Positions 54,248 through 64,000 are shown, counted from the stretch's first letter. The stretch: DNA of 64,000 bases from Ostreococcus lucimarinus (GCA_000092065.1 CP000595.1), one strand, 5' to 3'. Translations and numbers: made by a program. Notes: generated by a model not told the origin, from the sequence alone.

Positions 54248-54889
54248 TTACTTTACTTTTACGCAAATCAGCGTGTCGCCGCGCGAATCCCTCGACACGC
54301 GCCGCTCGTCGTCCACGTACACGTTTTCGAACCATCCACTGCCGACCGGGGGAATGGGAATCGAAAACTTGTCCCTGAACGTCAACGAAGCCGCCGTGAA
54401 TCGAAACTTCATCGTCGCGCGAGACGACTCTTCGACGACGGCGTCGACTTTAAACACCACCTCCCCGTCGTTGAACACGACTTCATTCGACAGCGTCTTC
54501 GCGTCTTCGCGAAGCGTCTGAAACGCTCGCGTCTTCGAGCGCGTCTTCAGCCCTAGCAACCACAGCGTTTCCTTCTCCGTCGTGTACGCGAGCTCCCACC
54601 TGGCGTACGACTTGGCGTTGTTCGAGCGCGCGTCGTCGCCTTTCGCGCGCGTCGTCGACGCCAACGCATCGATCGCGCGCTCGATGTCTCGTCGCGCGTC
54701 ATCGTTCGGCGCCACACCGACGCCTCGTCGCGACGCGTCGACGAGTTCGAACAGCGACGACGACGACGACGACGACGACGCGCGCGATGACGACGCGCGA
54801 CGCATCGCGCGCGACGCGCGCGACCCGCGCGCGAACGACGCCGGAGACGACGCCGGAGACGACGATTCGAACGACGTTCGCGCTCGCAT
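54248..54889 (-). CDS. Plastid-lipid-associated protein / fibrillin (PAP) family
   Basis: The C-terminal fibrillin signature GWFENVYVDDERRVSRDSRGDTLICVKV matches GWFDTTYLDEDLRI(S/G)RGDKG..FVL. Ser/Arg-rich transit peptide from the ATG at 54889. Confidence 0.65.
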   Translation of the reverse strand: MRARTSFESSSPASSPASFARGSRASRAMRRASSSRASSSSSSSSLFELVDASRRGVGVAPNDDARRDIERAIDALASTTRAKGDDARSNNAKSYARWELAYTTEKETLWLLGLKTRSKTRAFQTLREDAKTLSNEVVFNDGEVVFKVDAVVEESSRATMKFRFTAASLTFRDKFSIPIPPVGSGWFENVYVDDERRVSRDSRGDTLICVKVK

Positions 54890-55129: not shown

Positions 55130-56554
55130 ATGGGGCCCTGCATGAGCGTTCTCGAGGCCGCGGGCGTGAACCTCGCGGCGTTACCGCCCACGGGACCGTA
55201 CGCGATGTCGAGCGAAGAATCGCTGTCGTTCTTGACGAACGCGGCGACGTTCGACAGCAACGGTGCCGGGAAACCGTTCGGTAAGCTCGTTCAACTGCGC
55301 GGCGGATCGCACACGCTCGCCAAGGCGTTCGGACTCGCGCCGGGAGGGACGCACAATTGCTTCATGTACGTCGACAAGGCGGAGTGCAAAATATCTAAAG
55401 ACGCCAAGCCCTTGAACGGGGCCACGATCGACGTGAGCGACGGTGAGCTGCAACTGTGGTACTGCCAAGGCGCCGCGATATCGATGCCGGTGGCGTGCGT
55501 GAAAGTCAACGGCGGCAGCGCGCGAGCGATTTTACCCCGATTGCACGCGGTGGATTTGTACGTCGAAATCGACGGCAAGGCGTACGCCGACGGGCACGTG
55601 TGCTACGGCAGCGACGCGAACTTGTCGCGCGACAAGGCGATCGATGCGGCGGTGAAGAACACGTTTGAAGGTGAACTTTGGATGAAGGACTTCTTGAAGA
55701 AAGGCCCATCCGATGGTTCCAAGCCGTGGGCCACCATCGTCAAGGATGAGCGTTGGGGCGACGACGACGGGTACGTGTACTTGCCGCTCATGGCTAACGA
55801 TGTTGACAACGCTTTGATGGGCGACGATAAGCTCACGTATGTGCACAGCTTGATGTCCAAATGGGCCCAGCTGATGGGCAAGATCGGCGCCGGCGCGCAC
55901 AGCTTCACCGTTCGCATCCGTCCGCGCGGCGTTATTTACAAGGACGAAGACGGCGCGCCCATGTTCGACTCCATCGGCGGTGGTAGCGACGATAACGACG
56001 CTGTCTTGGGAATGTGCGGGCAACATCTCACCGATCCCAACGCGCCGGGCATGAGCGCGACCTGGACTATGACACTCGACGCCGCGCAGGCGAGCGGCAA
56101 GGGACCCGTTCGCAAGGCTCAGGAATTCACCAACTGGCCGGCGGGCGAAATCGAAGAATGCATCGAGATGGCGATGGATTTCGCCAATAAGGGTGTGTGC
56201 GGTCGAAAGGCGGCTGAGATGGCGCCCAAATCGAAGTGCTGCCACATCATCTTGTCCGACGGCGATCAAGGGTCGGGCATCAAAACTGCGCGGTACGGCA
56301 ACGGCGAGCGCGAATATGACTTTTTCTGCGCGTGGGCGTTGTTTAAGAACGCCAACGGCAAGCCGGATTCTCTCGGCGCTCAGATCAAGTTCGTCGTCAA
56401 GAAGAAGAAGATTGTCAATTTCCGACCTGTGGACGAGGACTGGCATTCCGCCGGTTTCGAAACCGCGGCCGTCGGCGTCGAAAGCGTCACTGGTTTGACG
56501 ATCACCAACGCGGAAATCGACGCCGCAATCGCACGCGATGCCCAGTACTACTGA
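55130..56554 (+). CDS. Hypothetical protein with an N-terminal MGxC dual-acylation motif (MGPCMS)
   Basis: 474-aa ORF of normal composition. The opposing track ORF 55532..56629 is an Arg/Ala-rich artefact. HIILSDGDQGSG is vaguely vWA/MIDAS-like. Family unknown. Confidence 0.5.
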   Translation: MGPCMSVLEAAGVNLAALPPTGPYAMSSEESLSFLTNAATFDSNGAGKPFGKLVQLRGGSHTLAKAFGLAPGGTHNCFMYVDKAECKISKDAKPLNGATIDVSDGELQLWYCQGAAISMPVACVKVNGGSARAILPRLHAVDLYVEIDGKAYADGHVCYGSDANLSRDKAIDAAVKNTFEGELWMKDFLKKGPSDGSKPWATIVKDERWGDDDGYVYLPLMANDVDNALMGDDKLTYVHSLMSKWAQLMGKIGAGAHSFTVRIRPRGVIYKDEDGAPMFDSIGGGSDDNDAVLGMCGQHLTDPNAPGMSATWTMTLDAAQASGKGPVRKAQEFTNWPAGEIEECIEMAMDFANKGVCGRKAAEMAPKSKCCHIILSDGDQGSGIKTARYGNGEREYDFFCAWALFKNANGKPDSLGAQIKFVVKKKKIVNFRPVDEDWHSAGFETAAVGVESVTGLTITNAEIDAAIARDAQYY

Positions 56555-56574: not shown

Positions 56575-56967
56575 GACATGTGCCCACCATCGCTGGCACA
56601 ACCCCTCGCATATCCATACTATAATCCACGCTTGAGTCATTTTGATTAGCACTTGATCGCTCGCGGCGCTAGCGCTTTTGTGTAATATAAGGTTGAAATG
56701 AGATTGAAATGAAAGCTTACAACACTCGCGCTGTGATTACGCCGCGATCTGTCGCGTCTCCGAACGAAGCGCTCGCTCTAGCGCTTCAAAGGCGCGACAT
56801 TTTTCATCGAGCGAAACGTCCTTCGCGAACGCTGGTCGATTGCATGCCAACGTTCGAAGCCACACATCTTCCTCTGCCGCATCTAGCTCGCGACGCAGAT
56901 TCGCGATGCGCGTTTGTTTCATCGATAGTATCGCGTTCATCTTATCGCCGCGTTCCGACTTCGCGCC
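56575..56967. repeat. Left copy of a ~393-bp inverted segmental duplication (truncated 3' end plus 3' UTR of the 61866..63464 gene, in reverse orientation)
   Basis: The reverse complement matches 63234..63626 with only a few mismatches. It carries a pseudo-exon encoding ...KSERGDKMNAILSMKQTRIANLRRELDAAEEDVWLR(T/A)LACNRPAFAKDVSLDEKCRAFEALERALRSETRQIAA. Confidence 0.85.
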
Positions 56968-57025
56968 ATTATTCATCTGTTCTTTATTCTCGCTGTTGTT
57001 CCTAGTCGCTATCTTTTTCTTTCTA

Positions 57026-59080
57026 TTATTCCACGACGGTTTCGTACGACGTCGATATTCCGATGAGTTTCACGCGGTGGCCATCACCACTCGTCACCTC
57101 GATGCGCACGTCGCACGTGTTCGATCCATCGAACTCGACGCTCTGCGGTCCCGCGTCGAGGCTGACACCATCTATAGTTATTGGAATCGAGTCGGCGTTC
57201 GTGAGACTCACTCTGCGTTCCCATTGCGTGCTTACGACTCGCTCCTCACACGAACACCCGTTCGAGCAGGATACGGCGATCGTTCCGTAACCAGACCACG
57301 AATGCAGCGTCGAAACCAAAATGGTGACACCTTTGACTTTACCGAACGGTTTACCGAGTGATTGACGCACGACGATGTACGCGCCTTTCTTCGTCGCGAC
57401 GTACCCTGGTTTGTGCGCAGTTCGCCCGCTTTCTTCGCGTTCGACGTACGTCCAGTCCGGTGACTCGTCCACTATCGGAGGCCACGCGAAGAAGCCGCTC
57501 GATTCGATGTCATCGACGACATCGCCGCCGTGCGTCAGCGTTTCTTTCCCAAACTCGTAACATTTCGAGACAATCTGCGCGGTTTTCGACGACGACAGCA
57601 TCGGAGGCAACTTTCCGGGCGCCGCATCTTTCGGTGGCGACACCGCGTCGTCTCTGGCAGACCAATACGCGGACGAGACGTATCGACCTTGTTCGTCCGA
57701 GTCTCGCGCTTCAACCGACACGAATGTGAAAGGTGCGTACGATGTCAAAGGCTTTCGTCCTCCCTCGTCGGCGTACGCCAAACGCGTCGCGTCGATGGCC
57801 ATGCGCAAACCATTGACGAAGTAGCTACCAACGATTCGTGTAGCATTCGGTTGCGTCGGGTGTAAGCCGTCGCGCGTCCAATCTAAAAGAGCAAAAGGCG
57901 CGCTCTCGTCTTGCGTCGAATCGCGCATGACGTCAAACATGCCTCGTCGCAGGTTGACCACGGGGATGCCGTAGTGCTCGGATAAGCGCTCGTACACATC
58001 GAGTACTGGGTGATATCTCGTATAAGCGTCGCGGATCGCACTTTTCATCGCTTCTTTTCGCGGAACGTCCAAGTTGTAGCCCTTGAAAATGAGCGAATCG
58101 GGCAACTCTCGGCACAATTGTCGCGTAGCCGCGAAGGAGTCCCCCGACGACACTTTCGCAAAGCGTGGCGAGCACCAGTTCTGAGCGTGCACAATCATGA
58201 ACGCTGGCATGTTTCTCTTCTCCTCGGATCCCTCTATTATTTGCTTTCGCTGCGTCAACTGGTGCATGATTGTCTCGAGTTCGTGCGTCAGACGCGCGAG
58301 GTGTACCTCCGCCACAGAGCCTTCATCCATGAGCTCGAGCGTAGCCGAGAACTCAAAAATAAAGAGATCGACGTTTTCTGAGTCGGGAAGCCATTTATCC
58401 AGACAGCTCGCAAAGGAGTGAATCCCACCACCCGGACGCGCGATGTTGATCCACTCGTGCGAAACGTTCGGGTTGTTGTACAGCGGTTCGACCTTCGACA
58501 GGTCTACCGGATACGTTTCCTCGAGCCAATCGATGGCGGGTCGCAACCATTCTCGAGCTTCACTCGGCGGCGCGTACATCCCAGCGCCGCAACATACGTC
58601 TCGCTTCCCGACCACTTCGCACATATGGCGAAGCGGGCGCGCGGTTGACGTGCAACCGCCGTGGACGCCCATTACGCTCGAGCCCAGCGCGACGATGCTC
58701 AGTCGTTCCCGCGCGTCGAGTTTACGGACCAGTTCACGCCAGCCCTCAGATACTGTGGAAATTGAGGTGGCATCGAATAACGCCTTGTCGACTCGCCGCG
58801 TCCAACTGCCCGACCGCCGGCGGTCGTCGACCGCCGGCGCCAACACCGCCGTCTCCGAACGCGCGCGCTTCTCGTACCGCGCCGGCGATGTCGCAGTAGT
58901 CGACGTGCGCGTGCGCGTTTTCACCGCGCTCGCGCTCGCGAGTGCTCCGCGCGAAAGCACGCTCAGCGCGACGAAAACGACCACCGCGGTCGCGTCCACC
59001 ACGCGCGCGCGAGAAAAAGAGGCGCGCGACGACGACCTCCCCGTGCATCCGCTCGCATCGTCGCGCTTTGTCTCCGCCAT
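57026..59080 (-). CDS. SGNH/GDSL-like hydrolase-domain membrane or secreted protein
   Basis: Signal-anchor (ATAVVVFVALSVLSRGALASASA) after the ATG at 59080. Block I IVALGSSVMG. Catalytic DxxH in WTRDGLHP. Extra C-terminal beta-rich domain. The upstream track extension overlaps the next gene's start. Confidence 0.6.
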   Translation of the reverse strand: MAETKRDDASGCTGRSSSRASFSRARVVDATAVVVFVALSVLSRGALASASAVKTRTRTSTTATSPARYEKRARSETAVLAPAVDDRRRSGSWTRRVDKALFDATSISTVSEGWRELVRKLDARERLSIVALGSSVMGVHGGCTSTARPLRHMCEVVGKRDVCCGAGMYAPPSEAREWLRPAIDWLEETYPVDLSKVEPLYNNPNVSHEWINIARPGGGIHSFASCLDKWLPDSENVDLFIFEFSATLELMDEGSVAEVHLARLTHELETIMHQLTQRKQIIEGSEEKRNMPAFMIVHAQNWCSPRFAKVSSGDSFAATRQLCRELPDSLIFKGYNLDVPRKEAMKSAIRDAYTRYHPVLDVYERLSEHYGIPVVNLRRGMFDVMRDSTQDESAPFALLDWTRDGLHPTQPNATRIVGSYFVNGLRMAIDATRLAYADEGGRKPLTSYAPFTFVSVEARDSDEQGRYVSSAYWSARDDAVSPPKDAAPGKLPPMLSSSKTAQIVSKCYEFGKETLTHGGDVVDDIESSGFFAWPPIVDESPDWTYVEREESGRTAHKPGYVATKKGAYIVVRQSLGKPFGKVKGVTILVSTLHSWSGYGTIAVSCSNGCSCEERVVSTQWERRVSLTNADSIPITIDGVSLDAGPQSVEFDGSNTCDVRIEVTSGDGHRVKLIGISTSYETVVE

Positions 59081-59252
59081 CGTCGCGTCGCCTCGGAAGC
59101 GACGCGACACCTCGTCGCGCGACACCTCGTCGCCATGCACCGCACAGTGCGGACGAACGCCTCGGACATCGCGATCATTCGCCGACGCGCGTCGCCGTCG
59201 CCGTCCCGCGCGCGCGCCTCGAGAGCGAGCGATCGCCGACGATTGATACGCC

Positions 59253-61784
59253 ATGATCGAGCAGCTGCGCCGCGCGGTCGAGGCGAAGCCCGCGCTCGAG
59301 CCTTTTGCCAGCGGCAGACGAACGATCGACGCGAGTGGAACGGCGAACGTCGCGTCGTCGTCGTACGCGGCGAATAACATTCGAGCGTGGTTGAGCGGGG
59401 ATGCATCGACGCCTTCGACGACGAGCGCGAACGCGACGAAGGAGGACGACGACGCGTTCGACGCCGTCGCGTACGCTAGAGAGGCGTTCAGTCGCTCGCG
59501 ACGAGGCGGCGCGGGGAGCGGTGGAGACGCTCTGGATGACGTCGCGTTACTCGCCGATGGCGCACGGACGATGGAGGCTTTGATCAGGGACGAAGTGATC
59601 GGGAAGCGTGAGACGTTGGAGGAGGCGTTGCGCGGCGTCGAAGAGGCGGAGGCGACGATGAAGACGATTCGCGAGGGCGCGAATGAAATCGCGGACGCGA
59701 TGCGTCGCGTGGCGCGCGAAATCGGAGAACCGCATGAATCCGTGGAGGCGTCGACACGGACGCTCGAGCGCGTGATGGCGACGGGGGAGACTTTGCGGGG
59801 CGTCGTCAAGGTGTTGAAGCTGACGAGTAAATTGCGCGAGTGTTACGGCGGCGGCGACGACGAAACCAGATCGAGAGACGCGAGCGAGTTGAGTAAAGCA
59901 GCCAAGCTTCTGGGAGAGGTTAAGCTCACGTTGAAGAGCGCCGGTCGCGATTTCGACGGTGTTGACGTCGTGGATGAGCAAATGGTATTTATTCAAGACT
60001 GCTCCGTAGCCGTCAGTCGCGAGGCGAACGAGGCGCTGGATCGAGGCATGGAGACCGCATCACAAGCTGACGTCGGCGCGGCATTGCAGGTGCACTACAA
60101 CTTGAATGAGCTTAGCGCCGTCGTGGATGCGCGCGTGGCGAGTTACACGAACGCCGCCGTCGACGCCGTCAAGGACGCCGTCGACGCGGAGAGCGTAGGC
60201 AAGACGGCGACCGGCGCGAGCGGCGACGGCGCTCGACGCGGCAGTCGAGGTCTCGTGGCGCCACCGAGTGGAGCCGAGCACGCGTGGGAAGATGCTCTGT
60301 GGCGTCGCGTCGACGTCGCCATGGAAACCGTGCAGGAAAATGCCATGGCGGTGTGGCATCTGCAACGCGTGTTGGCGAAGAAGCGAGATCCCCTCACTCA
60401 GACGCTGTTTCTCGATGAAGTTGTCGGTAAAACTGCGTCGACGCAAGCGCTTTGCGATCGTTTTTGGGCCGTGTTTGCCAAGGGCGTGAGCGAACACCTG
60501 TCTCGCACGCACGCCGCCGGGGGATTTGTATCGCGCGCCTTGCAAAAGGGGTTCCCAAGTCTCATCGGCGCTCTCGAAGACGCCGTCGCCAAGTGTGCTC
60601 GAGACGCGGACGCGGCAAAGGGGGCACCAGGATGTACGCGTAAAGACGGCACGACACGCGCACTGGTTTTGCGTGCGTGCGAACCGATCGCCGCGGCGTT
60701 CTTCGCGCACTCTTCCTCGCGTCTGAGCGACGCCGCAAACTATTGTTTCGCGGATGGGCGCGTGATAGACGAGGCGAGCGCCGATCGATTTCTTTCTCGC
60801 ATTCGCGCTGAAATCGATGTCGTCGCAGAATACGATAATTTGCTCAACAACGCGTGTGGAAACGCGAGTTCTGCTTTGAAAACATTGGCTGACCGGGCAA
60901 AGCGGTCGATCGGTCGATCGATCGAGGCTTCGAGTCTAACCGAAGAGGCCACGCCGACGCAACGCGCGAACGCGCAAATCGCCGAGCAACTCGCGCGAGC
61001 GCACGGATTGATGAGCAAAGTGTTGCCATCCTTCGCGCCGACGCCGAAGCGAGCGTTGGAGGTTGGACTCGAACACATCGAGTCTGCGGTGCGCGAAGCC
61101 ACCAGACCGCTCTTCGACGCCGTCGGCGATTGGTGCGACGCGAGATTTACTCAAATGCACAACACCGACTATAGCTCGACTGCGTCGGACGGGTCTGCGA
61201 AGCACATCATAGCGGTCACCTCTACACTCGGACACGTGGCTGATTCGCACCCAGGTCTTTTCACCGCCGCTCGCGGACCGTTGTTTGCGGCTCGCGTCGC
61301 GCTCGGCGATCGAATCCTGCACTCTTTCGTCGTGCACGCTTCGCTCATTCGCGATTTCGATCAGGGCGGGAAAATGCGTCTCGTCAAGGAATGCGGAGAG
61401 ATCGAACTCGCAGTGGTGAAGACCCTGCGTCTGGCTGGGGCGGAAACGGAATCCATGGAGTTCAAATCCATCAAGGCGTTTAAATCGCTCGTTCTTTTGC
61501 CGACGGAGAACATCGAAGCGTCTCCGTTGGTTCGAGATGTGTCGCGGCGAGCGCTGCTACATCACTTGTACAGTCGCGCGCCTGCCGAGTTAACGACGCC
61601 CGCTAATCGTGCATCCCTCAGTCAAACGCAATACGCATCGTGGTTACTTAAAAAAGCGAGCGACGCCGAGGTGTGGCGCGGTGTCAAGGGCACTCTCGAC
61701 GTCTTCACGGACGTCAACAGCGCAAATGCATCACACGTCGCCGTAGCGCTCATGCGGAAAATTGGTGAGAGCTTTGGTAAATAA
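59253..61784 (+). CDS. Large helical protein, tentatively conserved oligomeric Golgi complex subunit 5 (COG5)-like
   Basis: 843-aa ORF. ATG at 59253. N-terminal FDAVAYAREA...coiled-coil. All-helical composition and size are consistent with COG5. The identity is tentative. Confidence 0.5.
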   Translation: MIEQLRRAVEAKPALEPFASGRRTIDASGTANVASSSYAANNIRAWLSGDASTPSTTSANATKEDDDAFDAVAYAREAFSRSRRGGAGSGGDALDDVALLADGARTMEALIRDEVIGKRETLEEALRGVEEAEATMKTIREGANEIADAMRRVAREIGEPHESVEASTRTLERVMATGETLRGVVKVLKLTSKLRECYGGGDDETRSRDASELSKAAKLLGEVKLTLKSAGRDFDGVDVVDEQMVFIQDCSVAVSREANEALDRGMETASQADVGAALQVHYNLNELSAVVDARVASYTNAAVDAVKDAVDAESVGKTATGASGDGARRGSRGLVAPPSGAEHAWEDALWRRVDVAMETVQENAMAVWHLQRVLAKKRDPLTQTLFLDEVVGKTASTQALCDRFWAVFAKGVSEHLSRTHAAGGFVSRALQKGFPSLIGALEDAVAKCARDADAAKGAPGCTRKDGTTRALVLRACEPIAAAFFAHSSSRLSDAANYCFADGRVIDEASADRFLSRIRAEIDVVAEYDNLLNNACGNASSALKTLADRAKRSIGRSIEASSLTEEATPTQRANAQIAEQLARAHGLMSKVLPSFAPTPKRALEVGLEHIESAVREATRPLFDAVGDWCDARFTQMHNTDYSSTASDGSAKHIIAVTSTLGHVADSHPGLFTAARGPLFAARVALGDRILHSFVVHASLIRDFDQGGKMRLVKECGEIELAVVKTLRLAGAETESMEFKSIKAFKSLVLLPTENIEASPLVRDVSRRALLHHLYSRAPAELTTPANRASLSQTQYASWLLKKASDAEVWRGVKGTLDVFTDVNSANASHVAVALMRKIGESFGK

Positions 61785-61865
61785 AGTAGCAGTCTCGGCG
61801 TAGATTGAGAGCATCGTTTGCGTTGTAGAGATTGTAGATATTATTAGACGGCGAACGGTGATCCA

Positions 61866-63464
61866 ATGCGCGAGCTCAGTCAACTCGATGTGGAAGACCT
61901 CGGGCGTCCTCAGAGCGAGGCGATCATGCGCGCGAACGACTTGGACACGGCAAACAGCGATGATACGGCGAACGGCGATGACGACAATGCGCGTCGTCGC
62001 GTCGCAAAACGTCGCGCACGGCACGATCGCGCGATCGCGAACGCCTTTGGCTCGGAAAAAGCGATTGGTATTCTGCTAAAATTATCTGTGCCAACGCACG
62101 CGCGCGAGGGCGCACGCGTTGACGCCGCCGCCGCCGCCGACGACGATGATGATTCGCGCGAACGCGCGTTGCGCCCGTCGCGCGACGCTGCGGAAGCCCT
62201 GCGCGCCGACGGCGATGCCTTCGGCTGCATCGAGCGCGAGACGACGCGGACGCTTCGCGCGGAGAGCGGAAATCGATTGCGGACGATGGCGGCGCATTCA
62301 CGCGAACGCGAGGAAGCGCGCCGAGAAGTCGTTCGTGAGACACGGTATTCGTTTCGGTGCGACATGCTCGATGATGCTGAGACGAGCGGGGTTTTGAACG
62401 ACGAACTCGTTGAGGCGTGGAACTCGCTTTTGCGAGAAAATCATATTTCAAAAGACGACGAGACGGGAGATGGCTTCGGCGCACGCGACGACGACGACGA
62501 GGACGGCGATCGCGTTGATTGCATGGATCTCGACGCGCGGTTCCGCGCGCACGTTGATGCATGTAAAACCGCGCTCGAGCCGAAGGAATCGCTCGCAGCT
62601 CGGTTGAAGGCGCATTTAGTTGCCGAAGTCGACGCGCGATTCGACGATGCGATACACGAGCACAGACTCGAAATCGGCAAAGCTCGACGACTGGCTGCAG
62701 AAGAAAGACTCACGCGCAAAAATGCTGTCGAAGAAGTCATTTCGAACACGAAAACGACCTTTGGCGAGACCTCGACGCGTCGAGACGCTTTGCGCTCGGA
62801 AGCTCTCGCCGCGACCGATCGCTCAGCGGCGGCTGAAGACGCGGATTTATCTGCGCGATCTCGGCGCGAAGCGGACGCGCGCCGCGCATCTTTGATAGAA
62901 ATCAAACTTCGGAACGCGAGTGAGGTGTCAGAACTTCGCGCTTGCTTAGAGCACCGCGTGAGTGAGGCCTTCTCCCGTCTCCAGTATGCCATCGCTCGAG
63001 CGCCTCTTCGAGCCGAACGGCTGCGAGACGCGATGAAGCGGCGACGGGGTGACGAGGCGCGAAGGCGAGCGAGGGAACGCTTGGCGTCCAGAGCGATGAA
63101 AGACACGCGCTTCGAGCTACAAGAAATGAAGAGATGCTATACCGAGACGGAGCGAGCCAACGCCGGGCGGGACCGGAAACTACGACTGGCGACGCTGAAG
63201 ACGACGTCTCGCGTCGGCTCGATCGAGAGTATCGGCGCGAAGTCGGAACGCGGCGATAAGATGAACGCGATACTATCGATGAAACAAACGCGCATCGCGA
63301 ATCTGCGTCGCGAGCTAGATGCGGCAGAGGAAGATGTGTGGCTTCGAGCGTTGGCATGCAATCGACCAGCGTTCGCTAAGGACGTTTCGCTCGATGAAAA
63401 ATGTCGCGCCTTTGAAGCGCTAGAGCGAGCGCTTCGTTCGGAGACGCGACAGATCGCGGCGTAA
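61866..63464 (+). CDS. Hypothetical acidic coiled-coil protein. Last gene before the telomere. Its 3' end is duplicated at 56575..56967.
   Basis: ATG at 61866. Long heptad-like Arg/Glu/Ala-rich segments. No recognisable family. Confidence 0.55.
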   Translation: MRELSQLDVEDLGRPQSEAIMRANDLDTANSDDTANGDDDNARRRVAKRRARHDRAIANAFGSEKAIGILLKLSVPTHAREGARVDAAAAADDDDDSRERALRPSRDAAEALRADGDAFGCIERETTRTLRAESGNRLRTMAAHSREREEARREVVRETRYSFRCDMLDDAETSGVLNDELVEAWNSLLRENHISKDDETGDGFGARDDDDEDGDRVDCMDLDARFRAHVDACKTALEPKESLAARLKAHLVAEVDARFDDAIHEHRLEIGKARRLAAEERLTRKNAVEEVISNTKTTFGETSTRRDALRSEALAATDRSAAAEDADLSARSRREADARRASLIEIKLRNASEVSELRACLEHRVSEAFSRLQYAIARAPLRAERLRDAMKRRRGDEARRRARERLASRAMKDTRFELQEMKRCYTETERANAGRDRKLRLATLKTTSRVGSIESIGAKSERGDKMNAILSMKQTRIANLRRELDAAEEDVWLRALACNRPAFAKDVSLDEKCRAFEALERALRSETRQIAA

Positions 63465-63626
63465 TCACAGCGCGAGTGTTGTAAGCTTTCATTTCAATCT
63501 CATTTCAACCTTATATTACACAAAAGCGCTAGCGCCGCGAGCGATCAAGTGCTAATCAAAATGACTCAAGCGCGGATTATAGTATGGATACGCGAGGGGT
63601 TGTGCCAGCGATGGTGGGCACATGTC
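63234..63626. repeat. Right (intact-gene) copy of the ~393-bp inverted duplication
   Basis: Covers the last ~77 codons of the 61866..63464 gene and ~160 bp of its 3' UTR. It is the reverse complement of 56575..56967. Confidence 0.85.
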
Positions 63627-63891
63627 GTTTGTCGTCCAACACGAACACTGAAGAAGGAACTTTGACGCAAGAGTCCGGCGACGTCCGGAGCGTCGAGGGG
63701 GAAGTCTGCGGTGCCGTGCTGGTCGACGCGTGATGGCCGTAGGGTGTCGTGAAGGTGCACAGGAAGGATGCGAATGCTAGTGACTTTTCGGGTTTTAGTA
63801 CGTCCCAGAGAACCTAGGGTTAGGTGTAATAAGTATTAGCTAGTCGGTCGGTTACGGCACTTCTCCCGAAGCGCCTCCCTCCCTCATGCGT

Positions 63892-64000
63892 AGGGTTTAG
63901 GGTTTAGGGTTTAGGGTTTAGGGTTTAGGGTTTAGGGTTTAGGGTTTAGGGTTTAGGGTTTAGGGTTTAGGGTTTAGGGTTTAGGGTTTAGGGTTTAGGG
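63892..64000 (+). repeat. Telomere: (TTTAGGG)n, ~15.5 units, G-rich strand running 5'->3' toward the window end (right chromosome terminus)
   Basis: Perfect tandem gggttta units to the last base. Degenerate telomere-like cctagggttagg at about 63814..63825. Confidence 0.95.

What the first reader, a model, noticed from the sequence alone, without database searches (positions are those of the whole stretch)
56575..63626. Subtelomeric ~393-bp inverted duplication brackets the last three genes before the telomere
The 3' end of the terminal coiled-coil gene (its last ~77 codons plus ~160 bp of 3' UTR, 63234..63626) is present a second time, reverse-complemented and ~99% identical, at 56575..56967. 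That copy sits in the spacer between two unrelated genes. The two arms flank a 6.3-kb segment carrying the SGNH-hydrolase, COG5-like and coiled-coil genes, roughly 270 bp from the start of the telomeric array. The high identity suggests a recent event, either break-induced replication or template switching at the chromosome end. Inverted arms of this kind can drive inversion of the enclosed segment or form hairpins that cap a broken end. The left copy retains an intact pseudo-exon whose minus-strand ORF still reads MNNGAKSERGDK...RQIAA.
Basis: seen in the sequence. Interest (0 to 1): 0.65.

Follow-up and report, generated by a model that had tools for sequence, protein, structure and literature searches.

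The report
Repair scar inverting a chromosome end
The 393-bp inverted repeat is real and is best read as the scar of an old chromosome-end repair in the alga Ostreococcus lucimarinus, one that flipped the last three genes relative to a simpler version of the same chromosome end still common in the sea.

Summary
Arms 56575-56967 and 63234-63626 are 393 nt long with 4 mismatches and sharp edges, and they are the only sizeable repeat in the 64-kb window. The window is Ostreococcus lucimarinus CCE9901.

More than 40 marine metagenome contigs, about 99-99.8% identical, show this chromosome end is structurally polymorphic:
- **One-copy form.** Thirteen contigs carry a single copy of the 393 bp, as the true 3' end of the coiled-coil gene beside gene A. 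Their interior has the opposite orientation, and the 684-aa gene runs into the subtelomere; five of them reach TTTAGGG repeats.
- **Window form.** Eleven contigs reproduce the window's left junction.
- **Repeat-free derivative.** This form has the 684-aa gene deleted and a telomere added inside the right arm. It shows the window orientation exists in the wild without any repeat ambiguity.

Both novel junctions carry 3-nt microhomology (TAT and GTC). The distal junction joins a subtelomere module shared with other chromosome ends.

Best reading: microhomology-mediated inverted template switching (fold-back or MMBIR type) at a broken end, healed by subtelomere capture. The left arm sits at the ancestral position, so it is not a stray insert.

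This is a new example of a known kind, of modest interest.

The parts
55130..56554 (+). Gene A (474 aa, XP_001421672.1 of O. lucimarinus CCE9901). It is the proximal anchor gene and is convergent with the ancestral position of the coiled-coil gene.
   Evidence: ORF. Exact match to the CCE9901 protein. Adjacent to the repeat in all contigs.
56575..56967 (-). Left arm R_L: a copy of the last 77 codons plus 162 nt of downstream sequence of the coiled-coil gene. It lies at the ancestral location of that gene's 3' end and carries wild-type alleles.
   Evidence: Allele table. One-copy wild haplotypes have this same copy next to gene A, continuous with the coiled-coil gene.
56737..56976 (-). 79-aa ORF ('pseudo-exon'). 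Its ATG comes from the 3' UTR of the 684-aa gene and the rest is the coiled-coil C-terminus. It is annotated in CCE9901 as the 61-aa XP_001421806.1.
56968..56972 (.). Inner novel junction J2, joining the 3' UTR of the 684-aa gene to the inverted repeat. The pristine wild form is GAATAT|CGGCGCG, with 3-nt microhomology TAT to the coiled-coil gene's GAGTAT|CGGCGCG. The window carries a 2-nt variant, GAATAATGGCGCG.
57026..59080 (-). It is the last gene before the telomere in one-copy wild haplotypes and is deleted in haplotype e.
59253..61784 (+). COG5 (conserved oligomeric Golgi complex subunit 5), 843 aa.
   Evidence: Pfam COG5_N and COG5_C. Orthologues in sister species.
61866..63464 (+). Coiled-coil-like 532-aa gene with no Pfam match. 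Its 3' end is the right arm. The window allele has WLRALAC where wild alleles and the left copy have WLRTLAC.
63234..63626 (+). Right arm R_R: at a novel position next to the subtelomere. It has 3 private substitutions and 1 polymorphic substitution relative to 36 wild copies.
63624..63626 (.). Outer novel junction J4: the 3-nt overlap GTC between the end of R_R and the start of the shared subtelomere module X.
63624..63890 (+). Subtelomere module X, shared at 94-100% with the ends of other contigs that have unrelated proximal sequence (other chromosome ends).
63891..64000 (+). Telomere array (TTTAGGG)n, running off the end of the window.

Best explanation
The inverted repeat is the scar of a microhomology-mediated, replication-type repair of this chromosome end in an ancestor of the reference strain.

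**Ancestral layout (inferred).** Gene A(+), then R as the 3' end of the coiled-coil gene(-), COG5(-), the 684-aa gene(+), a short subtelomere and the telomere. This layout still segregates in the sea.

**The event (inferred).** A broken end primed DNA synthesis in inverted orientation on the same or the sister chromatid at a 3-nt microhomology (TAT). It copied the coiled-coil 3' end a second time: 393 nt in the window, 600 nt in one wild contig. It then switched at a second 3-nt microhomology (GTC) onto a subtelomere module of another chromosome end and so regained a telomere.

**Two routes to the window's gene order:**
- (a) The break lay just after the 684-aa gene's UTR (...GAATAT-3'). The end folded back, and the 6.3-kb spacer later flipped by homologous recombination between the arms. 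I prefer this route.
- (b) The break lay inside the coiled-coil gene, and the whole interior was copied back in inverted orientation from the sister chromatid. This gives the window order directly.

**Consequences.** No gene is disrupted. The left arm leaves a 79-aa ORF with no evidence of function. The arms remain a substrate for flipping and gene conversion.

**Shown:** the repeat, the junction sequences and their microhomologies, the alternative haplotypes and the shared subtelomere module. **Inferred:** the polarity, the order of events and the enzymology.
For: - **Repeat.** It is real and unique in the window.
- **Organism.** O. lucimarinus CCE9901.
- **One-copy haplotypes.** Thirteen independent contigs carry one R copy next to gene A, continuous with the coiled-coil gene, in the order coiled-coil(-), COG5(-), 684-aa gene(+). 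Five of them run on into TTTAGGG repeats. Having no repeat, these are unambiguous.
- **Inner junction J2.** It cuts the coiled-coil coding sequence. It lies exactly where wild type-b UTR continues into other sequence, with TAT microhomology.
- **Outer junction J4.** It overlaps by GTC with module X, which occurs at other chromosome ends.
- **Chance of the microhomology.** At least 3 nt arises by chance at 0.076 of simulated junctions.
- **Order of adjacency and duplication.** L011 has 600-bp arms that include 200 nt of gene A's 3' end plus the spacer. So the adjacency of gene A and R predates the duplication.
- **Window-type layout in the wild.** It is found in 11 independent contigs. It also occurs in the repeat-free derivative, haplotype e: gene A, 72 nt of R, COG5(+), coiled-coil(+), telomere.
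- **Comparison with known cases.** Spacer length (6.3 kb) and microhomology length fall within the ranges for sequenced human fold-back inverted duplications: spacers 766-70,466 bp with median 3,428 bp, microhomology 2-8 bp (PMC3907307).
- **Which arm is new.** The distal arm alone carries private substitutions.
Against: - Polarity could not be checked with an outgroup. Sister Ostreococcus species have rearranged synteny here.
- Two 3-nt microhomologies are only suggestive. The joint chance is about 0.006 if they are independent.
- In a fold-back product the spacer keeps its original orientation, but in the window it is inverted, so an extra step or route (b) is needed.
- The only contig showing both arms in the unflipped orientation (L011) may be mis-phased across its 600-bp arms. 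A test for long-read origin was inconclusive.
- Short-read contigs cannot phase across the arms in principle.
- The outer junction J4 was not found in any wild contig.
- End-types b, c and d share one breakpoint, and this is not fully explained.
Confidence: 0.72

Rival explanations
1. The window order arose directly in one event (route b). A break inside the coiled-coil gene at the inner edge of R was followed by microhomology-mediated break-induced replication on the sister chromatid in inverted orientation. That replication copied the 684-aa gene, COG5, the coiled-coil gene and R, then switched to another chromosome's subtelomere. No later flip is needed.
For: It yields exactly the window order with the same two junctions. 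The window order is the commoner two-arm layout among the contigs fetched and is the parent of haplotype e.
Against: It does not explain why wild end-types c and d break at the same base of the UTR. Error-prone synthesis would be expected across the whole 6.3 kb, yet the excess substitutions are confined to the distal arm. L011 and L007/8/10 show the other order with the same junction, though their phasing is uncertain.
Confidence: 0.25
2. The two-arm window layout is ancestral. The one-copy haplotypes were derived from it by inversion followed by loss of the distal arm.
For: Haplotype e shows that terminal truncation with de novo telomere addition inside the right arm does happen. No outgroup polarisation was possible.
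Against: J2 interrupts the coiled-coil reading frame, so it cannot be original. Types b and c would each have had to lose the distal arm exactly at J2. Type b's UTR continues past J2 into sequence that is not repeat-derived. The 600-bp arm of L011 duplicates part of gene A.
Confidence: 0.08
3. The left copy or the orientation of the interior is an assembly artefact of the reference (a collapsed or misjoined subtelomere).
For: Inverted repeats near contig ends are classic sources of misorientation. The opposite orientation is seen in many metagenome contigs.
Against: The two arms differ at 4 sites, so they are distinct sequences. Eleven independent contigs from several assemblers cross gene A, R_L, J2 and the 684-aa gene. 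Haplotype e fixes the window orientation without any repeat. From my own knowledge, the reference was Sanger-finished, and such reads span 393 bp.
Confidence: 0.03
4. The arms are terminal inverted repeats of a mobile element, or the recombination sites of a site-specific invertible cassette.
For: The region consists of two inverted arms bracketing a cassette, and both orientations are seen in populations.
Against: There are no target-site duplications. There is no transposase or recombinase among the three interior genes. The arm is the coding 3' end of a host gene. The unit occurs nowhere else in the window. COG5 is a conserved housekeeping gene that lies in the same neighbourhood in sister species. 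One-copy haplotypes exist at the same site.
Confidence: 0.02

Closest known systems
[quoted passage not shown] 2014, PMC3907307; yeast foldback inversions, Li, Putnam and Kolodner 2020, PMC7467729)
   Same: An inverted duplicate lies at a chromosome end, separated from its source by a single-copy spacer of a few kb (6.3 kb here; 0.77-70 kb in humans). There is 2-8 nt inverted microhomology at the spacer/duplication junction (3 nt here). The original terminal sequence is lost, and the end is stabilised by acquiring a telomere or another chromosome's end.
   Different: The retained duplication is tiny (393-600 bp, against kb to Mb). The spacer is inverted in the window, which is not a primary fold-back product. 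The rearrangement is not a pathological or laboratory event. It is a haplotype segregating in wild populations of a haploid picoalga, alongside the ancestral allele and further derivatives.
Microhomology-mediated break-induced replication / fork stalling and template switching (MMBIR/FoSTeS), the model proposed for complex inverted duplications (cited from my own knowledge)
   Same: There are two junctions, each with about 3 nt of microhomology. There is a switch to the opposite strand and then a switch to a different chromosome end. An excess of base changes in the newly placed arm is compatible with error-prone synthesis.
   Different: No inserted templated snippets are seen at the junctions. 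The enzymology cannot be tested here. The substitution excess rests on only 3-4 sites.
Inversion isomers generated by recombination between inverted repeats (plastid genome IR isomers, yeast 2-micron plasmid; cited from my own knowledge)
   Same: Two inverted arms bracket a segment found in both orientations. A base private to the reference is shared by both arms (56585), which suggests inter-arm gene conversion.
   Different: There is no dedicated recombinase. The arms are short and 1% diverged. Coexistence of both isomers within one strain is not shown. Most opposite-orientation contigs lack the second arm altogether.

Membership tests
Fold-back inverted duplication with spacer (inv-dup / terminal deletion class) | An inverted second copy of proximal sequence placed at the chromosome end | tested here: met
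   The 393-nt arms are 99% identical, and the distal arm lies 264 nt from the telomere array.
Fold-back inverted duplication with spacer (inv-dup / terminal deletion class) | A single-copy spacer between the source and the inverted copy | tested here: met
   There are 6,266 nt between the arms with no internal repeat. This lies within the 766-70,466 bp range of PMC3907307.
Fold-back inverted duplication with spacer (inv-dup / terminal deletion class) | Inverted microhomology at the spacer/duplication junction | tested here: met
   TAT is shared by the UTR (GAATAT) and the coiled-coil gene (GAGTAT). The chance of at least 3 nt is 0.076, so this is suggestive only.
Fold-back inverted duplication with spacer (inv-dup / terminal deletion class) | Loss of the original terminal sequence and healing by telomere addition or capture | tested here: met
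   The type a/b subtelomere (module Y) is absent from the window. It is replaced by module X, which is shared with other chromosome ends and joined with a GTC overlap.
Fold-back inverted duplication with spacer (inv-dup / terminal deletion class) | The spacer retains its original orientation | tested here: not met
   The interior is inverted in the window relative to the one-copy haplotypes. This requires a later flip or a different primary event.
MMBIR / template-switch rearrangement | Microhomology at every novel junction | tested here: met
   J2 has TAT and J4 has GTC. The deletion junction of haplotype e has AT.
MMBIR / template-switch rearrangement | Elevated mutation in the newly synthesised tract | tested here: inconclusive
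   The distal arm has 3 private substitutions in 393 nt, against about 0.1% divergence in the interior. The counts are too few, and gene conversion or relaxed constraint are alternative explanations.
IR-mediated inversion isomers | Both orientations present with both arms intact, in one lineage | tested here: inconclusive
   L011 (flipped) and L023 (window order) share an identical coiled-coil allele. However, short-read assemblies cannot phase across the arms.
DNA transposon with terminal inverted repeats | Target-site duplication, a transposase, and multiple genomic copies | tested here: not met
   The flanks are not direct repeats. There is no transposase domain. There is no other copy in the window.
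Assembly artefact | The junctions are absent from independent data | tested here: not met
   The left junction and the orientation are reproduced in 11 contigs and in the repeat-free haplotype e. The outer junction J4 was not recovered elsewhere.

The most novel reading that the evidence does not exclude
This chromosome end may be a recurrently breaking site. Three different wild continuations diverge after exactly the same base of the 684-aa gene's UTR. At least six structural haplotypes coexist. The inverted arms may then act as a standing flip-flop, with inter-arm gene conversion, that changes which gene abuts the telomere and buffers the essential COG5 gene against terminal erosion. On this reading it would be a maintained structural feature of minimal subtelomeres in picoeukaryotes and not a one-off scar.
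Probability: 0.08. Interest if true: 0.6.

Novelty: new member of a known kind. Interest (0 to 1): 0.38.

Why it matters
- **For users of the reference.** At this chromosome end the O. lucimarinus CCE9901 genome carries a derived, rearranged allele. The terminal 6.3 kb is inverted relative to a common wild haplotype. The annotated 61-aa 'predicted protein' XP_001421806.1 is a duplicated gene fragment.
- **For genome-stability research.** This is a natural case readable at base resolution. The ancestral allele, the rearranged allele and later derivatives can all be read from environmental data in a haploid eukaryote with very short subtelomeres. The derivatives comprise a gene deletion and a de novo telomere addition 64 nt after a stop codon.
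- **Limits.** It does not open a new mechanism.

Tried and rejected
- **Outgroup polarisation.** COG5 homologues of sister Ostreococcus species (60-67% aa identity) were located and their neighbourhoods fetched. Gene order differs too much to polarise: the coiled-coil gene lies upstream of COG5 in L036, and there is no 684-aa gene nearby.
- **Search for the outer junction J4 in the wild.** An exact junction pattern found nothing in JGI metagenome contigs. Two ORFs spanning it are not on record. The second scan instead revealed that the sequence after the arm is a shared subtelomere module.
- **The window's exact coiled-coil protein.** It is not in the collections.
- **Test of whether L011 is a long-read assembly.** Its indels are not associated with homopolymers, so the result is inconclusive.
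- **Clustering of interior SNPs by structural type.** No structure was found, with only 0-11 differences per 5.1 kb. There is therefore no evidence for long-term recombination suppression.
- **Transposon/TIR and site-specific inverton readings.** Rejected: no target-site duplication, no recombinase, and the arm is host coding sequence.
- **Hairpin-cap reading.** Not pursued, because the arms are 6.3 kb apart and a telomere is present.
- **Protein family searches.** Pfam and PDB searches gave nothing for the 684-aa, 532-aa and 474-aa proteins.
- **Literature searches.** No prior description of this repeat was found.


Full report
**1.

A repeat search over 54-64 kb returns one inverted pair, 56575-56974 / 63227-63626 (400 nt, 98%).
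- Base-by-base comparison gives a clean 393-nt core, 56575-56967 versus the reverse complement of 63234-63626. It has no gaps and four mismatches (56610 A/G, 56628 A/G, 56824 C/A, 56853 T/C), which is 98.98% identity. Similarity is abruptly lost outside both edges.
- Over the whole window it is the only repeat of at least 60 nt, apart from a 67-nt, 73% low-complexity match. Chance is not an issue.
- The right arm is the last 77 codons plus 162 nt downstream of the 532-aa ORF 61866-63464.
- TTTAGGG repeats begin at 63891, 264 nt beyond the right arm.
- Of the two coding mismatches, one is synonymous and one changes Thr to Ala (WLRTLAC on the left, WLRALAC on the right).

**2. Source and gene content**

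Gene A (55130-56554) is identical to XP_001421672.1 of Ostreococcus lucimarinus CCE9901, on a 468,366-bp record. The left-arm ORF is annotated there as a 61-aa 'predicted protein', XP_001421806.1.

COG5 is confirmed by Pfam. The 684-aa protein (57026-59080, minus strand), the 532-aa protein and gene A hit no Pfam family even at E = 10. The 684-aa protein has no meaningful PDB sequence match.

**3. Wild relatives show a structurally polymorphic chromosome end**

Exact-protein look-ups returned more than 40 distinct marine and estuarine metagenome contigs, about 99-99.8% identical to the window.

*One-copy haplotypes (13 contigs).* Their order is gene A(+), R, the rest of the coiled-coil gene(-), COG5(-), the 684-aa gene(+), a short subtelomere, then (TTTAGGG)n. 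There is a single copy of the 393 bp, continuous with the coiled-coil gene. They fall into three end-types:
- **Type a** (5 contigs) leaves the 684-aa gene's UTR after ...CAGCGAG.
- **Type b** (7 contigs) continues ...GATGAATAT|GTATGAG... into a subtelomere module Y.
- **Type c** (1 contig) continues ...GAATAT|TCGTGAAGG, which is window 63747 onward.

Five of these contigs (four of type a, plus type c) reach telomere repeats. The type-b contigs stop in subtelomere sequence that type a carries on to the telomere. These contigs contain no repeat, so their order is unambiguous. In them the interior is inverted relative to the window.

*Two-arm contigs.* All share an inner junction J2, ...GAATAT|CGGCGCGAAG..., where the UTR of the 684-aa gene runs into an inverted copy of R.
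- Eleven contigs are collinear with the window across gene A, R_L, J2, the 684-aa gene(-), COG5(+) and the coiled-coil gene(+). L023 matches over 16.7 kb at 99.2%. Nine of them stop inside the right arm. The other two (L021, L022) are contigs of about 1 kb that span only the left junction, and they carry the window's own 2-nt variant of J2, GAATAATGGCGCG.
- Four contigs (L007, L008, L010, L011) instead follow gene A, R, coiled-coil(-) ... 684-aa gene(+), J2, R'.
- L011 passes through both arms. There the arms are 600 bp (99.67% identical) and include 200 nt of gene A's 3' end plus the 20-nt spacer. The distal arm is joined to subtelomere sequence.

*Haplotype e (8 contigs).* It has gene A, the outer 72 nt of R, then directly COG5(+) and the coiled-coil gene(+).
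- Window 56647-59080 is deleted. That removes the rest of R_L, J2 and the entire 684-aa gene, with AT microhomology at the deletion junction.
- In six of these contigs a telomere is added de novo after window 63528: ...ACACAAAAGCG|TTTGGGTTTAGGG..., 64 nt after the coiled-coil stop codon.
- One contig (L046) keeps the right arm to at least 63598.
- The telomere-healed form of e has no inverted repeat left. It therefore shows, free of phasing ambiguity, that the window orientation exists in the wild. It is most simply a deletion derivative of the window-type layout.

A 453,766-bp JGI contig ends exactly at the inner edge of R, as expected at an assembly branch point.

**4. The caveat on phasing**

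For any genome with both arms, the two orientations of the interior give the same set of junctions. Short-read assemblers cannot choose between them unless differences between the arms are closer together than k.

Consequently L007/8/10, and possibly L011, do not prove a two-arm 'flipped' isomer. My test for a long-read origin of L011 was inconclusive. L011 and L023 carry identical coiled-coil alleles yet are assembled in opposite orientations, which fits either flip-flop or arbitrary traversal of the repeat.

Three results are secure:
- the one-copy flipped haplotypes;
- haplotype e;
- the existence in the wild of every novel junction except J4, the outer junction of the window.

**5. Which arm is the 'copy'**

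In all 36 wild copies, the R next to gene A carries the alleles of the window's left arm at the four sites where the arms differ; 56853 is polymorphic. The right arm has three private substitutions.

The left arm therefore sits at the ancestral position of the coiled-coil gene's 3' end. The right arm, now serving the gene, is the one at a new position.

Both window arms share C at 56585 where all wild copies have G. This points to inter-arm gene conversion or to a consensus artefact.

The interior differs among all haplotypes by only 0-11 sites per 5.1 kb and does not cluster by structural type. The 1% divergence between the arms is therefore about ten times the background.

**6. The junctions**

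- **J2.** The UTR ends ...GAATAT and the coiled-coil gene reads ...GAGTAT|CGGCGCG, so 3 nt (TAT) are shared.
- **J4.** The right arm ends ...ACATGTC. The sequence from 63624 onward (GTCGTTTGTCGTCC...) is a module X found at the ends of six other contigs whose proximal sequences are unrelated to the window, meaning other chromosome ends. Three nt (GTC) are shared.

In 200,000 simulated inverted junctions within the window, at least 3 nt of microhomology occurs in 7.6%. The two together are suggestive (about 0.006) but not conclusive.

Module Y of types a and b is also shared with another chromosome end. Subtelomeres here are short mosaics of shared modules.

**7. Polarity**

Sister Ostreococcus species could not polarise the change, because synteny is rearranged. 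Within the species, three points indicate that the one-copy layout is ancestral:
- J2 interrupts a reading frame.
- Type b's UTR continues past J2 into non-repeat sequence.
- L011's arm duplicates part of gene A, so the adjacency of gene A and R predates the duplication.

The reverse history would require types b and c each to have lost the distal arm exactly at J2.

**8. Mechanism**

The anatomy matches sequenced fold-back inverted duplications in most respects. It has a terminal inverted copy, a single-copy spacer of a few kb, short inverted microhomology, loss of the original end, and capture of a telomere-bearing sequence. In the human cases spacers are 766-70,466 bp with a median of 3,428 bp, and microhomology is 2-8 bp (PMC3907307). 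Yeast foldback inversions are likewise stabilised by secondary rearrangements (PMC7467729).

The mismatch is that a primary fold-back keeps the spacer's orientation, whereas the window's spacer is inverted. Two routes remain.
- **(a) Fold-back, then flip.** A break just after ...GAATAT is followed by fold-back priming, and the spacer later flips by recombination between the arms. This route also accounts for types c and d sharing that breakpoint, and for substitutions being confined to the distal arm.
- **(b) Inverted copying from the sister chromatid.** A break inside the coiled-coil gene is followed by inverted break-induced replication along the sister chromatid. This gives the window order at once.

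I favour (a), at roughly 0.45 against 0.25, within an overall confidence of 0.72 for the class.

The transposon, site-specific inverton and assembly-artefact readings each fail tested features (see the membership table).

**9. Consequences**

All three interior genes and gene A remain intact in either orientation. The 79-aa ORF owes its ATG to the UTR of the 684-aa gene and shows nothing that indicates function. Haplotype e shows that the 684-aa gene is dispensable in nature.

**10. Verdict**

It is one allele of a polymorphic, repeatedly repaired chromosome end and not a fresh event. The reference carries the derived, inverted form.

No prior description was found in the searchable literature. 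It is a new example of a known kind and of modest interest.

Noticed in passing
L011:832-2886 (equivalent to window 57000-59000): In contig L011 the 684-aa gene differs from the window by 157 substitutions over about 2 kb (about 8%), while COG5 next to it differs by 0-2 per 500 nt. This is a highly divergent allele of the gene nearest the telomere.
   Followed up: partly
window 56970 (UTR of the 684-aa gene); L002, L003, L007 tails: Three different wild continuations (module Y, the interior of module X, and inverted R) all start after exactly the same base, ...ACAGATGAATAT|. One broken end repaired in several ways, or a fragile site, would explain it. Not resolved.
   Followed up: partly
window 56647-59080 and 63528; L043-L050: A wild haplotype lacks the whole 684-aa gene. 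Its telomere is added de novo inside the right arm, 64 nt after the coiled-coil stop codon (...AAAAGCG|TTTGGGTTTAGGG).
   Followed up: yes
window 56585 and 63616: Both arms of the window carry C (G on the opposite strand) where all 36 wild copies carry G. This suggests gene conversion between the arms, or an assembly consensus effect.
   Followed up: partly
window 63624-63890; L037-L042: The last roughly 270 bp before the telomere is a module shared at 94-100% with other chromosome ends. A second module (Y) in types a and b is also shared. Both contain interstitial telomere-like motifs (TTTTTTAGGGTTTTC, CTAGGGTTAG).
   Followed up: partly
L025:7310-15301; window ~54803: One low-coverage contig is collinear with the window from 62115 down to 54803, then continues into unrelated genes (alpha-amylase/CBM48, Ctr, ornithine decarboxylase, Romo1). 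The break lies in the (GAC)n low-complexity tract 54749-54877. This is either a translocation of the terminal 9 kb or a chimeric assembly.
   Followed up: no
window 56737-56976: The CCE9901 annotation lists a 61-aa 'predicted protein' (XP_001421806.1) that is simply the duplicated C-terminal fragment of the coiled-coil gene.
   Followed up: yes
L051:1 (JGI contig Ga0494228_00130, 453,766 bp): A chromosome-scale metagenome contig terminates exactly at the inner edge of the repeat, as expected where an assembly graph branches.
   Followed up: yes
window 1-64000: GC content per kb swings between about 52% and 76% along the whole window.
   Followed up: no
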